Origin: Eledone cirrhosa
Taxonomy: Eukaryota
Reading direction: 5' to 3'
NCBI GenBank assembly: GCA_964016885.1
Contig: OZ024743.1
Coordinates: 38,192,001-38,256,000, forward strand
Length of the DNA stretch: 64,000 bases
Positions 12,415 through 17,713 of this stretch are shown here, piece after piece (position 1 is the first letter of the stretch; each line of letters begins with the position of its first letter). The notes beneath the pieces are model-generated. The model saw nothing but the letters and a program-made list of their open reading frames with translations. It made no database searches and was not told where the DNA came from. The position numbers and the translations under genes are program-made.

Positions 12415-12466
12415 ATTCCTGATGATTTCTAAAGAATGAAACAGTTCTAGTCCTGTAGAATCTCAT
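12415..12466 (+). ncRNA. Hammerhead ribozyme (14719 family), 5' stem I shortened
   Basis: attc-CTGATGA-tttctaaagaat-GAAA-cag ttctagtc ctg-TA-gaat. Confidence 0.75.
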
Positions 12467-13554
12467 CTATGTTAAAGCTATATATATATATATATATATA
12501 TATATATATATATATATATATATATATATTTATTGGCAACATGGCCCTCCCAAAGTATAACAATATATATATATATATATATATATATGCAGATATGCAT
12601 AATTTAACAGCCATAAATGCATGAAAGTTAATCCTGTATATTTATATATATATACTAAACATATTTATTTAATAACACAAACAATGTATAGCAGTAATAC
12701 AAAAAAACACTTATGCTTTGTATGTATATGTTATATGCGGGAGTAGATATAATGTGTATTTTCCGAGTGTGTGTGTATATATATATTTATGTATCTTTGC
12801 CTATGTGTACGTGATATACGATAGGTAATTTCTCTAGCAATATATATATTTTGTAATGTTTAAATTCCAATTTTTTATATATTGATCTCAATTTTTAAAC
12901 TAAATATCTAATCATAATTAAACAATGATTCATTTCTCATATTATATATGTATATTCCATTCATGAATATTAATATTTCTTTTTTTATTTATTCATTTCA
13001 TCTCAAATGTTAACTCAACTTAATATGACATGACTTAAGGTTTTCGTTCTCTCCCCCTCTCTCTATCTCTATATTTCTCTTTCTTGATTTTTTTCTCTCT
13101 GTCTGGTGGTTTGATATCTCTCTGTTGTTTTCCTCTGTTTTCTTTTTTCTTTTTTCTTTTCTTTCTTCTTTATTTATCTCTCCCTTTCTTTTCTCCACAT
13201 TTCTCTCTATCTCTCCGTACTTATCCTTAACACAACTTACTAAAATAAACAAACCACTATCCTGAAGTCGTCCAAAAGTAATGGTCGCATTTTGAAAGGG
13301 TACGTCAATATTTATTATAAAACTGGTATATATTGTATTTTGTCTGATGAAGGCATACCATAATTTAACTTGGTATCCTTTAAATATGTATAATGAAATA
13401 AATATGGTTTTATAAATATAGTTTCCATTTGTTAATATCGTATATATATATATATATATATATAGTGGTGGAACACTGGAAGTTAATATCCGTAGTGGTA
13501 GAGCACTCAGTCTAAGGGACGAGTTAGGTAGAAGTGGTTGCACAACAGTTAGTA

Positions 13555-13594
13555 CCGATAACAATTGTTTCACCTTAGCGGATCTTCAGCTCGG
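13555..13594 (-). ncRNA. Minimal hammerhead ribozyme
   Basis: Reverse complement: ccgag-CTGAAGA-tccgctaaggt-GAAA-caattg-TT-atcgg. Confidence 0.7.
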
Positions 13595-13729
13595 GATGTG
13601 CATGGTTATTAGAAAAGAAAGGACAACCGTACGAACGCACATGCGCAGAAACTCGGTCACCTCACACAGACTAGATTGCGTGCGAGAGGTGTAAGGGAGA
13701 TAGCTGCGAAAGACCGGAAAGTTTTTAGG

Positions 13730-13869
13730 TTAAAAATAAAAATAAAAATAAAAATAAAAATAAAAATAAAAATAAAAATAAAAATAAAAATAAAAATAAA
13801 AATAAAATTAAAAATAAAAATAAAAATAAAAATAAAAATAAAAATAAAAATAAAAATAAAAATAAAAAT
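13730..13869. repeat. (TAAAAA)n hexanucleotide repeat
   Basis: Direct reading; lies inside the left pLTR arm. Confidence 0.95.
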
Positions 13870-13946
13870 ACAAAGAATCAGTGATACCTGTAGGTATGCA
13901 ATAAATGTTTGGTGACGTGTGGATAACGTCAAAAATTCACTTCTCT

Positions 13947-14310
13947 TTAGGCAATCACTATTGCGTAATTTAGAATTGTTATTCGTTCGTCAATGGATAA
14001 GCCACAGGTCGCATTTCCCCTTGCGAATAGCTTGGACTTAGTGATGGATTTCCATTGAATGGAGTAGTCTATACTTGAGTCCTCGAGGGACCATACGTGG
14101 CTCGCGAGTTTCGTCGATGAACGTTTGTCCGGGTATCTGAAGGTAGACTGGAAACGCTCCTTGAATCGGCCCTCCGCAATGCCCACATAGAATTTGACCT
14201 CCTGTGGTTCGTTTGATCGGTTAGAAGGGACCACAGCTTCATAGATTACAGCTGGTGTGTTGCATTGCTGTTGAAGGGGGCAAGCTTCAGGTTTATGGCA
14301 AGAGCACCCT
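13947..14310 (-). pseudogene. PLE GIY-YIG endonuclease domain fragment
   Basis: CSCHKPEACPLQQQC..VIYEA..FYVGIAEGRFKERF..STKLASHVWSL..YSIQWK..C.L..DERITILNY. Confidence 0.85.
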
Positions 14311-14587
14311 GGTAAAGAGATTCCGCAATAGTGATTGCCTAAAAACGAGAGGTGAATTTTTCACACGTTGTCCACACATCACCAAACATTTATTGTATAA
14401 CTACAAGGCTCCGGACTGATTCTTTCTAATTTTATTTTTATTTTCAAGCTAAAAACTTTCCGGACTTTCTGAGTTATCTCCCTTACACCGCTCGCATGGA
14501 GTGTAGTATTGCCTGCGTGAGGTGACCGAGTTTCTGCGCATGCGCGTTCGTACGGTTATCCTTCCTGTTCCCATAACCATCCACATC

Positions 14588-14627
14588 CCGAGCTGAAGAT
14601 CCGCCAAGGTGAAACAATTGTTCTCGG
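14588..14627 (+). ncRNA. Minimal hammerhead ribozyme
   Basis: ccgag-CTGAAGA-tccgccaaggt-GAAA-caattg-TT-ctcgg. Stem I is a perfect 5 bp; stem III is palindromic. Confidence 0.8.
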
Positions 14628-14718
14628 TATGGTGAACTAACTGTTGTGTAACCACTTCTATATATCATATATAATATATATATATATATATATATATATA
14701 TATATATATTATATAACC

Positions 14719-14775
14719 ATGAGATTCCTGATGATTTCTAAAGAATGAAACAGTTCTAGTCCTGTAGAATCTCAT
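14719..14775 (+). ncRNA. Type I hammerhead ribozyme
   Basis: atgagattc-CTGATGA(14728-14734)-tttctaaagaat-GAAA-cag ttctagtc ctg-TA-gaatctcat. Stem I is a perfect 9 bp; GUA cleavage site. Confidence 0.85.
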
Positions 14776-14944
14776 CTATATTAAAACTTACTGTGGTTAC
14801 CTCCGATTCAACCCGGAATAACTTACCTTATATATATATATATATATATATATATATATATATATATATATATATATATATATATATATATTAGAAAGTA
14901 AAATGACCGGAGGCCGGACATGTTGAATTCACCTAATTAATTAT

Positions 14945-15008
14945 AATACTATGCACATTTCAGTGGCCAGGCAGCGTATGAATGTTGTGACATCATCAGC
15001 TGTATGTT
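14945..15008 (-). ncRNA. Probable decayed hammerhead ribozyme
   Basis: Reverse complement: CTGATGA-31 nt-GAAA-tgtgca-TA; stem I is out of register. Confidence 0.4.
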
Positions 15009-15156
15009 GCACAAGAGTTATATATCAGAGGAATGGTGGGGAACACATTCCAAAATGCTTTAACGAAAAATAGCAGAGAAAAAACAGAGAAATAAGTCTG
15101 TTTTCGTTATTGACTCATAGGCGATCGTGGGAGCGTGTTGATATTTTGCTTCATCG

Positions 15157-15310
15157 TCTCTCTCTCTCTCTCTCTCTCTCTCTCTCTCTCTCTCTCTCTC
15201 TCTCTCTCTCTCTCTCTCTCTCTCTCTCTCTCTCTCTCTCTCTCACTCTCTCTCTCTCTATCTATCTATCTCTCTATCTCTCTTTCTCACTCAACCTCTC
15301 TCTCTCTCTC
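15157..15310. repeat. (CT)n microsatellite
   Basis: Direct reading. Confidence 0.95.
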
Positions 15311-15364
15311 TGTATACACGCACACACACACACATATATATATATTTAATATAGAAAAGTTTCT

Positions 15365-15429
15365 ATAGAAAGATTCCTGATGATTTCTGCCGAATGAAAC
15401 AGTTCTACTCCCGTAGAAGCCTTTTCTAT
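15365..15429 (+). ncRNA. Hammerhead ribozyme (diverged member of the 14719 family)
   Basis: atagaaagattc-CTGATGA-tttctgccgaat-GAAA-cagttctactcccg-TA-gaagccttttctat. Confidence 0.7.
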
Positions 15430-17713
15430 GTTAAGTATTTATGCTCTGCTTTGTATTAAGTACCTTCCTAACTGTGGTTACCCCCGATTGAACCCGGGAT
15501 GAAATTATAAATATATATATATATATATATATATATATATATTTATATATATATATATATATATATATATATATATATATATATATATATATATATATAT
15601 ATATATATATATATATATATGTGTGTGTGTGTGTGTGTATATATTTATGTATGTATATATATCCGTATGATATTCACCGACGCCAGAATGGCCACTCAAT
15701 ATAGAAGTAGAGTTTAATAATCCTCTTTATCGTGGCTAAATGATGAGATTTGTTACTCAGGATTTATTCATCTGTGTATTGACAGATCAAAACGATTCAT
15801 CACTTAGCCATAATAAAGGAGGTTATATATATATATTAAATTACCAATGAAGGTTGGAAAATCACTGACGAAGGACTATTTTTATCATATGTAACCCGTG
15901 TGCAAACACGCAGTATTCTTTCTTCTCATGTTTTATATATATATATACACACACACACACATATATATATATATATATATATATATGTGTGTGTGTGTGT
16001 GTGTGTGTGCGTGTGTGTGTGTGTGTGTGTGTGTGTGTATATATATATATATGTGTGTATATATATAAATATATATATATATGTGTGTGTATATATATAT
16101 GGGTGTGGGTGGGTGTGTGTGTGTGTATATCTATATATCTATATCTATATATATATATATATATAATTGGAAATCAGTAAAATCGAATCTCTGGCGGTTT
16201 GCAAGTAAATTCGGCCTACTTATATGAAGTGATGAGTTAACAAAGCACTCGATAATGTAGGGCCTTAGAGTAATAACATACGTTTAAATAGCTTGACAAA
16301 TCGAACATTGTGGTAGGCTAAACTAACAGAGAATACATACCAAAGCAACGATAGAACTAATCAGGTTGAGAAAAGTACACCTGGACAGATCAAACGAACA
16401 ATCGTGTAAAGTGTTTCTTTGAATCCGAAATCAAATATCAGACTTACTTGAAAGGGAAGCTCATGGTATTGGTGATCGAACGTAGGATTCAGTTTATCAA
16501 CAGATTTTATCGCTCTTCCTAGGATCGGAGTGATAAATTATATGTTGCTGCTACATGCTGCTTATCGTATCTATAATTATCACGTGTTAATTCCGGCAAG
16601 GGAAATAACCCCCGGTCCCAGGCGGTTCATTCAAAATGTTAGCGAAAGGAAATATTTTAAATTTCCGCTAATCATCATGATAATCTCTCGACTAGATCTT
16701 ATGAAACAAACACTAATAATTAACAAATCAACAGAATTGTCTAATTAAATTAATTAGTTAATTATTAAATCTCTCTCTCTATATATATATATACCCCACC
16801 TTGAGAGTGATCATTCGGACTGTCAGAAATCTCCCAAATTGTAATCGTATATACCGAGGAGATGTATCAAATGTTGCTGTTTTACATAGCCCCTCAAGGC
16901 AATATTGGAAGATCTCTGAAACCTTTCCAAAGTTATGTCTACACAATCACATCTCACTATCCTGTAAACTAAAATGCCCGAAACAATATAACTATATCGA
17001 CAATTGTTAATAATATTTGATTCCTTATTTGCTTTATGAACACATGCCTGACATGTTAAGAAATGTGCTTCGCATTCATAACTTCACAAGTGACACGATG
17101 CCCTTAATAAAGTAATGGATTAACACAAAACTTGTAAAGAAAATAATCTAGCCAGGTTTTGAGGAATCCTGTCTGGTGTCTCGAACTTTTAATTCAAGTT
17201 TTTAGTCACACATCATACTCTTCTGACTTGCGTAAGAATACTGTTACGTATATATAGGATATTCCGCCATTTGCATAATAATTTAACAGGTGAAGCCTTC
17301 AGTTGATCGGATAACTGCATTGTCATCATTGAATCCGACGGATGATCCCTCGTAGAAGATGAGAACAACTATGTTTTTATATAAATTGCTTCTATAAGAT
17401 TTAAAATGTCACAAGGTTTAGAAATTTTACTTTAATATCTTTCCAACAAGATTCAGTTTACCACTTCCTTTTGTCTTTCATATCGTTTGACGCTTTTAGC
17501 TAGACTGATATTGCGCAAATATTGCTGCTTCTACACACAATGCAGGAAATGGCTTTTAAACGAAGAAGACAGTGTTAGGTCTTGTGCAAATATCGCTCAA
17601 TAATAACAAGATTACAGAGACAAACTAATACAAACAAAACATCATCTGTATGACGATGTAGTTTGTTCGAAGTGACTGAATATATTATTACAGCAAATTG
17701 TGTTCTTGTTATT

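What the first reader, a model, noticed from the sequence alone, without database searches (positions are those of the whole stretch)
12415..15510. Three clustered copies of a ~115-160 bp HHR-only unit with stem I covariation
The copy at 14716-14829 is essentially a ribozyme plus a ~55-nt tail between two (TA)n runs. It has a 9-bp stem I and a true stem III (cag/ctg), so it could fold as a monomer. In the 15365 copy both outer stem I strands differ yet still pair (atagaaa/tttctat versus atgag/ctcat). The tail actgtggttacc.ccgatt.aacccgg is shared by the 14719 and 15365 copies. Three copies within 3 kb suggest local hopping or a hot target.
Basis: partly seen in the sequence, partly recalled or inferred. 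Interest (0 to 1): 0.7.

Follow-up and report, generated by a model that had tools for sequence, protein, structure and literature searches.

The report
Penelope retroelement ends carrying hammerhead ribozymes
These three stretches are separate, cut-short insertions of the end of a very common jumping gene that carries a predicted self-cutting RNA, not a new ribozyme-only element, and about half of its copies stop at one spot that likely marks where the element's RNA begins.

Summary
The three hammerhead cores are real (12419, 14728, 15377). They are not an independent ribozyme-only unit. They are ends (pLTR hammerhead plus optional tail) of an abundant Hydra-type Penelope-like retroelement: full-length copies with a 714-aa RT/GIY-YIG ORF carry the same 52 bases, and two core patterns match 16,379 places genome-wide. 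The native stem I is 6 bp; the 9-bp stem and the 'atagaaa/atgag' covariation come from insertion-junction sequence. True covariation lies at two inner pairs between subfamilies. The monomer fold is disfavoured and loop 3 is palindromic. The copies are separate insertions into (TA)n, not local hops. Two things go beyond what I found in print: 54 of 99 unselected copies end within 12 nt of the core, 30 nt below a TATA box, with both arms of inverted pairs short together (likely run-off cDNAs); and the same hammerhead forms a ~377-kb array of 78-bp units elsewhere. The scan noted similar two-armed insertions earlier in other families of this genome, none matching this sequence.

The parts
12366..12478 (+). 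Copy 1: 5'-truncated pLTR end, about 53 nt of element upstream plus hammerhead, ending at the short 3' site; no tail; one stem I pair broken (G>C at -5)
   Evidence: Aligns to pLTR locus L048 from 12366; best relatives on other loci 94.5% over 110 nt
12381..12386 (+). TATA-like box (TATAAA) of the pLTR, -38 from the core; predicted promoter element
   Evidence: Sequence; TATAAA at -36 in 28 of 37 copies where found
12419..12457 (+). Hammerhead core of copy 1 through the predicted GUA cleavage triplet (12455-12457)
12479..12533 (.). (TA)n target run at the 3' end of copy 1
14659..14721 (.). (TA)n run and non-element junction bases of copy 2; ATG at 14719-14721 supplies the three extra 'stem I' pairs
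14722..14828 (+). Copy 2: begins at the hot-spot position (-6); hammerhead (core 14728, GUA 14764-14766, 6-bp stem I 14722-14727/14767-14772); tail with a ~29-nt deletion near 14789; ends at the long 3' site
   Evidence: 52 of 52 bases (14724-14775) identical to full-length elements L122, L123, L125, L127; deletion junction at 2 places genome-wide
14829..14891 (.). (TA)n target run at the 3' end of copy 2
15345..15368 (-). Short, decayed inverted arm of copy 3 (reverse complement of its own stem I 3' strand and next bases); source of 'atagaaa'
   Evidence: Side-by-side with reverse complement of subfamily B; same arrangement in L064
15374..15505 (+). Copy 3: subfamily B pLTR end, core 15377, GUA 15413-15415, complete tail to the long 3' site; stems I and III damaged
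15506..15620 (.). (TA)n target run at the 3' end of copy 3
13466..14660 (.). Unrelated two-armed repeat between copies 1 and 2, in (TA)n; each arm has its own hammerhead-like core (14593 on +, 13589 on -) with palindromic helix III; one arm has a ~62-nt extra tail. Likely another Penelope-type insertion, showing a shared hot target

Best explanation
The three stretches are the hammerhead-bearing ends (pLTR end plus optional tail) of an abundant Penelope-like retroelement with Hydra-clade protein motifs, each sitting in a (TA)n run and likely inserted separately by the element's own reverse transcriptase and GIY-YIG endonuclease. Shown: the full element reads pLTR(hammerhead), 714-aa ORF, ~2-kb TA/TG-rich 3' region, pLTR(hammerhead) with or without tail. 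The tail is the stretch between the hammerhead and the ORF start. Copies end at one of two 3' sites (about +50-67 or +125-135 from the core). About half stop within 12 nt upstream of the core. Many are head-to-head pairs with one long and one short 3' end. Inferred: the enzyme cuts both strands of (TA)n and starts two cDNAs at two internal RNA sites, as shown in vitro for the anole element PAc. When it starts on the 5' copy of that region, it likely runs off the RNA 5' end at the first base of stem I, a predicted TATA/initiator start. The resulting ~65-135-nt cDNAs are joined to each other or to the target. Copies 2 and 3 would be such run-off products. Copy 1 is an ordinary 5' truncation from a 3' pLTR. 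Cleavage is untested; if active, the ribozyme likely needs a partner copy or the protein. Confidence: about 0.95 for the identity, about 0.6 for the run-off step.
For: Full-length loci with the same hammerhead on both sides of the ORF (L126, L127) or before it (L122, L123, L125). Motifs RWR, DKT, YRDD, CNCLNKEAC, IVYKC..YIG, CDLC..E..N..CMH match the Hydra definition in Craig 2021, section 11. 10,296 + 6,083 exact core matches against 0 for controls. First 100 places on contig C1: 3' ends 57 at +46-70 and 39 at +121-135. 54 of 99 distinct copies end within 12 nt upstream, 39 of them at -4 to -7; TATAAA at -36 in 28 of 37. 17 of 18 inverted pairs have one long and one short end, 1 unclassified. 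All 44 short arms with an abutting partner have a short partner. Non-A subfamilies: 26 of 30 lack their own upstream. Contigs of public runs: the largest loose-end class lies at -3 (77 and 76 records in X1 and X2). Inverted pLTR, tail, TATA+Inr and dual RT starts are described for PLEs.
Against: No RNA data exist here, so the start site is inferred from DNA only. The modal end is -5 (16), not -6 (11). The G before 6-nt ends (8 of 11) is predicted by cap copying and equally by stem I fold-back. Arms of one insertion are counted twice. 4 of 22 'long' arms had a short partner, and L133 and L135 join a short arm to an ORF fragment. The sample needed an intact core, so ends inside the core were excluded. 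Pfam recognised neither RT nor GIY-YIG in the ORF. No tree with published Hydra proteins was built. Subfamily B was shown to share the pLTR upstream, but its own ORF was not located. Runs X1 and X2 are one sample and may be the assembled individual.
Confidence: 0.85

Rival explanations
1. Same element, but the 5' hot spot is caused by the cDNA folding back on itself through the stem I complement (or switching template there), not by an RNA start.
For: The hot spot coincides with the 5' strand of stem I. ATG before AGATTC is exactly what fold-back extension would add: 3 of 11 six-nt ends in the unselected sample, and many in the query-biased set. Arkhipova 2013 reads junction palindromes as self-priming.
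Against: Independent stalling per arm should give many short-long pairs; 0 of 44 short arms had a long partner. Most ends fall at -5 or -4 with varied next bases. A TATA box sits at the right distance.
Confidence: 0.25
2. Same element, but the hot spot is a splice acceptor (pyrimidine tract plus CAG ending at -5), so short copies derive from spliced or splice-cut RNA.
For: The acceptor-like sequence is in 42 of 45 upstream-bearing copies (CCCAG or GCCAG). In D. virilis Penelope the intron 3' end maps to the 5' end of helix I.
Against: No constant upstream exon appears before truncated ends; the flanks are inverted arms or (TA)n. A TATA at -36 leaves no room for an intron.
Confidence: 0.07
3. 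One reading: an independent ~115-160-bp monomeric hammerhead element (mini-retrozyme or SINE) that hops locally.
For: About half of the copies are nearly hammerhead plus tail only. True hammerhead-only tandem units of 64, 78 and 80 bp exist elsewhere.
Against: Identical sequence in full-length elements. The 114-bp form occurs twice. Tail-to-head joins of the long unit: 1 place, with a (TA)n spacer. The three copies differ in subfamily and ends. The monomer fold is disfavoured. About 9 such triplet centres are expected genome-wide under uniform spread, and the region is 9.1% (TA)n against 3.2% for the window.
Confidence: 0.04

Closest known systems
Hydra clade of EN+ Penelope-like elements, incl. 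Hydra-1_Obim (Craig et al. 2021, PMC8557442; passages, section 11, supplement searches and part 2 of 59 read)
   Same: Single RT + C-terminal GIY-YIG ORF; DKT; CxCX5C linker; CxxC/CxH around E and N; (TA)n target; type I hammerhead near the end. A U.U flank of stem II and an acag/ctgt helix III with A at the cleavage site occur in their File S2.
   Different: A different family from Hydra-1_Obim by eye (N-terminus and hammerhead differ). RWR instead of RWK. About 5 kb between hammerheads versus <3 kb. Loop 3 is 8 nt with a palindromic CUAG versus 0-3 nt.
PAc, Poseidon element of Anolis carolinensis (Frangieh et al. 2024, PMC11167929; parts 1-2 of 4 read)
   Same: Two internal RT start sites bounding the tail; both-strand cleavage of AT-rich DNA; hammerhead at the pLTR-ORF junction; hammerhead there needs the protein.
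   Different: Tail about 70 nt here versus 30-40. The first Met lies about 175 nt after the core here, not inside it. The parts read describe no run-off class.
PLE hammerheads / min-HHRs (Cervera and de la Pena 2014, PMC4209133; parts 1-2 of 4 read)
   Same: Most motifs are single and attributed to truncated PLEs; opposite-strand pairs 100-700 bp apart; palindromic loop 3.
   Different: 4-bp helix III present; U.U in place of G10.1-C11.1 in 48 of 48 copies; short 3-bp helix II.
Metazoan non-LTR retrozymes (Cervera and de la Pena 2020, PMC7229834, passages; Li, Clavereau and Pollet 2026, 10.64898/2026.07.22.740005, part 1, passages, section 12)
   Same: pLTR-derived type I hammerhead; the 78-bp array on contig C28 fits the tandem definition.
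   Different: The window copies are not tandem. The C28 array (~4,800 units if continuous) exceeds the largest array in Li 2026 (300 units); its unit length is within their 51-972 bp range.

Membership tests
Penelope-like element (EN+) | Single ORF with RT followed by GIY-YIG endonuclease, linked to this hammerhead | tested here: met
   714 aa from first Met; YRDD 347, IVYKC 586/YIG 603, FKTR 611. Read by motif; Pfam had no significant hit.
Penelope-like element (EN+) | pLTRs in partial tandem, with hammerhead | tested here: met
   Hammerhead on both sides of the ORF in L126 and L127; before the ORF in 6 of 20 fetched ORF loci (L122-L127 and L129 less none; rows), after it in most others
Penelope-like element (EN+) | Inverted 5'-truncated copy and optional tail | tested here: met
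   44 of 54 short arms abut an inverted arm; bimodal 3' ends; 17 of 18 pairs long+short
Hydra clade | DKT in place of DKG; no GxKF/Y; RWK motif | tested here: met
   DKT 116, no G.[KR][FY], RWR 38 (conservative variant) (definition)
Hydra clade | CxCX5C linker; CxxC and CxH flanking E and N in place of CCHH | tested here: met
   CNCLNKEAC 567, CDLCISE 667, LN..CMH 685
Hydra clade | (TA)n insertion | tested here: met
   96 of 99 copies run into a TA (rarely TC/TG) run after the element
Hydra clade | Monophyly with published Hydra RTs | not tested
   Published proteins were only viewed in the supplement; resemblance by eye
Hydra clade | Generally short (<3 kb); descriptive, not diagnostic | tested here: not met
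   About 5.0 kb core to core in L126 and L127, from a TA/TG-rich 3' region
Type I hammerhead ribozyme | CUGANGA, GAAA, UH core with three stems | tested here: met
   Stem I 44-48 of 48 per pair over 6 bp; stem II 3 bp; stem III 4 bp. A-U/C-G swap in 7 of 18 rows, A-U/G-C in 2: two events, not independent counts.
Type I hammerhead ribozyme | G10.1-C11.1 pair | tested here: not met
   U.U in 48 of 48; the same is listed for many Hydra hammerheads
Type I hammerhead ribozyme | Self-cleavage at GUA, as monomer or dimer | not testable with these tools
   Folding alone disfavours the monomer
Non-LTR retrozyme (window copies) | Head-to-tail tandem units each with a hammerhead | tested here: not met
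   Window copies are dispersed singles; long-unit tandem junction at 1 place genome-wide
Non-LTR retrozyme (C28 array) | Head-to-tail tandem units each with a hammerhead | tested here: met
   2,375 junction matches; 366 of 462 sampled units with intact core
Non-LTR retrozyme (C28 array) | Expressed linear/circular monomer RNA | not testable with these tools

The most novel reading that the evidence does not exclude
Thousands of these short insertions are integrated 'strong-stop'-like cDNAs: the Penelope RNA starts at the first base of its hammerhead, two reverse transcriptases start at two internal sites, run off the 5' end and are joined head-to-head in (TA)n, so the genome records both the RNA start and the two RT starts. 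One such two-armed insertion seeded a ~377-kb array of ~4,800 78-bp hammerhead units that may yield a very small retrozyme-type RNA.
Probability: 0.5. Interest if true: 0.62.

Novelty: new member of a known kind. Interest (0 to 1): 0.4.

Why it matters
As filed, it is an ordinary result: truncated ends of a Penelope-like element, a known source of solitary hammerheads. It also shows a pitfall. Inverted junctions manufacture apparent stem I 'covariation', because one strand is a copy of the other. The family itself is useful. How Penelope elements make inverted arms, tails and partial tandems is still open. This young family has many intact ORFs and over 16,000 core copies, with a sharp 5' end class and long/short arm pairing that give direct predictions for CAGE and for an in vitro assay. 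The 78-bp array is a traceable case of a satellite born from a Penelope hammerhead, with its founding inverted arm and (TA)n junction still at one end.

Tried and rejected
Rfam at gathering threshold: nothing. Pfam on ORF fragments and full ORFs: nothing significant. PDB sequence search: only chance-level hits. Search for RNA runs: no RNA holder listed. Naiad clade: rejected because the endonuclease is C-terminal and the hammerhead canonical. A ~620-bp non-autonomous element bounded by a microsatellite (suggested): rejected once the microsatellite proved internal to full-length copies. Identity with Hydra-1_Obim: rejected by eye. Automated 'inverted' flags were inflated by (TA)n matches (L001, L023), and some extension lengths were spurious; I relied instead. 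One search hits are biased toward ATG-bearing junctions by the query and were not used for frequencies. Cap-G as proof of a start site: not discriminating, since fold-back predicts the same base. Selection on the satellite core: not seen; most positions are 90-100% conserved inside and outside the core, and the 100% at GAAA is an artefact of unit detection. A double-hammerhead fold of two satellite units was only 2 kcal/mol better than two monomers and far from the best fold. Scan notes by sequence and by words: nothing. Supplements of the bioRxiv preprint could not be seen and may list comparable arrays.
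Full report
Observation. Three hammerhead cores lie at 12419, 14728 and 15377 on the + strand, with none expected by chance. Copies 2 and 3 share the tail. All three have GUA at the expected site, including 14764-14766, and each runs into (TA)n. Rfam does not score them at gathering threshold. The window lies in a 3.0-Gb animal assembly. That it is cephalopod is my inference, not a tool result.

The unit is not self-contained. Copy 1 aligns to element sequence from 12366, including a TATA box, and lacks the tail. That upstream sequence is a large repeat family that continues into the hammerhead. 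Two loci joined it to RT/endonuclease fragments. A protein search returned 150 scored matches, with open frames up to 811 aa. In 20 fetched ORF loci, the same hammerhead lies just before the ORF, about 2.5 kb after it, or both. The 52 bases 14724-14775 are identical in L122, L123, L125 and L127. The ORF is 714 aa from its first Met, about 175 nt after the core, so the 'tail' is the leader of the ORF. Two non-overlapping core patterns give 10,296 and 6,083 exact matches, with 0 for controls. Copy 2's 114-bp length is a sporadic ~29-nt deletion: its junction occurs at 2 places.

Clade. The motifs RWR, DKT, YRDD, CNCLNKEAC, IVYKC..YIG and CDLC..E..N..CMH, with no GxKF/Y, match the Hydra definition of Craig 2021. 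Their supplement lists Hydra-1_Obim, whose protein start and hammerhead differ by eye. Many Hydra hammerheads share the U.U flank of stem II. Against: Pfam and PDB recognised nothing, no tree was built, and the element is about 5 kb rather than <3 kb.

Stem I. In 48 distinct copies that keep their own upstream, six pairs hold (44-48 of 48 each) and the next two never form. ATG before AGATTC occurs in 0 of 45 such copies and in 3 of 54 truncated ones. Copy 3's 'atagaaa' belongs to a decayed inverted arm. Real compensation exists between subfamilies at -4 (A-U to C-G) and -6 (A-U to G-C). These are two events, so the shuffle control overstates them; that alignment held 15 of the 48 copies plus the three window copies. 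Folding gives stem III a probability of 0.04 in copy 2 and puts the hammerhead fold 3.4 kcal/mol above the best fold. The helix III segment self-pairs at -12.8 versus -1.4 kcal/mol as a hairpin. This fits a dimer or protein-assisted ribozyme, as reported for other PLEs, but energy models ignore tertiary contacts. Copies 1 and 3 have damaged stems.

Clustering. Copy 3 is 84-85% like copies 1 and 2 and 92-93% like distant loci. Copies 1 and 2 match at 61 of 62 core bases but differ in both ends, and dozens of loci match copy 2 at 100% over about 72 nt. Uniform spread predicts about 9 triplet centres genome-wide, and the region has 9.1% (TA)n versus 3.2% in the window. An unrelated two-armed repeat with two more hammerhead-like cores sits between the copies. 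'Hot target' is supported; 'local hopping' is not.

Mechanism. I took the first 100 exact matches on contig C1 as an unselected sample. 3' ends are bimodal: 57 at +46-70 and 39 at +121-135, like the two RT starts of PAc. Of 18 inverted pairs, 17 have one long and one short end. Of 99 distinct copies, 54 end within 12 nt upstream of the core, 39 of them at -4 to -7, while 45 continue further. TATAAA lies at -36 in 28 of 37, and the bases around -6 fit the initiator consensus (recalled). All 44 short arms with an abutting partner have a short partner; of 22 long arms with a partner, 18 have a long one (arms of one insertion count twice). Non-A subfamilies show the same: 26 of 30 lack their own upstream. 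Contigs of public runs have their largest loose-end class at -3 (one study, possibly the assembled individual). I read this as run-off at the RNA 5' end (about 0.6). Fold-back through stem I (0.25) and an acceptor-like site at -5 (0.07) remain open. L133 and L135 show mixed arms, which run-off allows if the two RTs use opposite ends of one RNA.

Strand excess and satellite. The 6,426 versus 3,870 strand split led to a head-to-tail array of 78-bp units (-19 to +58) on contig C28: 2,375 junction matches genome-wide, 2,372 on one strand. All 13 sampled stretches from 30,496,750 to 30,853,000 and the end segment hold the repeat, which stops near 30,873,730: about 377 kb, about 4,800 units if continuous. 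Its left end is (TA)n plus an inverted long-tail arm. Its right end is mid-unit against another repeat. The junction also stands in contigs of runs X1 and X2. 366 of 462 units keep the core, with no sign that the core is better kept than its flanks, so DNA-level expansion is the simplest reading. Li 2026 reports at most 300 units per array.

Literature. Inverted pLTRs, tails, solo pLTRs and TATA+Inr in pLTRs are described, as are solitary hammerheads from truncated PLEs and retrozymes as pLTR derivatives. Searches and the passages read did not show a run-off class at the hammerhead's first base or a comparable array. Most subscription papers and the preprint's supplements were not visible. An octopus repeat annotation mentions Penelope but not Hydra or hammerheads. 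Earlier scan notes describe two-armed, two-site insertions in other families of this genome; none matched this sequence.

Verdict. Real feature, misread in its main claims. It is a new family of a known kind. Interest 0.4, carried by the 5'-end class and the satellite, not by the three copies themselves.

Noticed in passing
G000:C28:30,496,750-30,873,730 (L273-L280, L287-L290, L292-L295): ~377-kb head-to-tail array of 78-bp units of this hammerhead, with higher-order variation; left end is (TA)n plus an inverted long-tail arm, right end mid-unit against a ~400-bp tandem repeat.
   Followed up: partly
L261:1370-1970 (C1:350.2 Mb); L259:1450-1700 (C1:324.0 Mb); L266:1455-1720 (C4:231.0 Mb): Small tandem arrays of the same hammerhead: eight 78-bp units with the C28 junction and no (TA)n ends; four 64-bp units between (TA)n runs; three ~80-bp units inside a multi-armed insertion.
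   Followed up: partly
window 13466-14660: Two-armed repeat of another family (2,166 first-look candidates) with hammerhead-like cores at 14593(+) and 13589(-), palindromic helix III, one arm with an extra ~62-nt tail, and a (TAAAAA)n expansion at 13731-13874.
   Followed up: partly
window 14820-14828; L048, L122 tail ends: The long 3' end site reads as a splice-donor-like sequence on the opposite strand (donor consensus recalled); related motifs recur in the tail and in the 3' region after the ORF. May be an RT-binding motif or chance.
   Followed up: no
L072:1340-1630: Subfamily B partial tandem of about 210 bp: hammerhead, tail, ~30 nt of ORF leader, then TATA-bearing upstream and a second hammerhead.
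   Followed up: partly
L122:4181-, L108, L109 (3' region of full-length elements): About 2 kb of TA/TG microsatellite-like sequence is carried inside the element between ORF and pLTR; many copies break off in it.
   Followed up: partly
window 12034-12290: Common short interspersed repeat just upstream of copy 1, also seen beside L011, L016 and L051.
   Followed up: no
L094:~3300(-), L117:138(+): Hammerhead-like cores of yet another family near these PLE loci.
   Followed up: no
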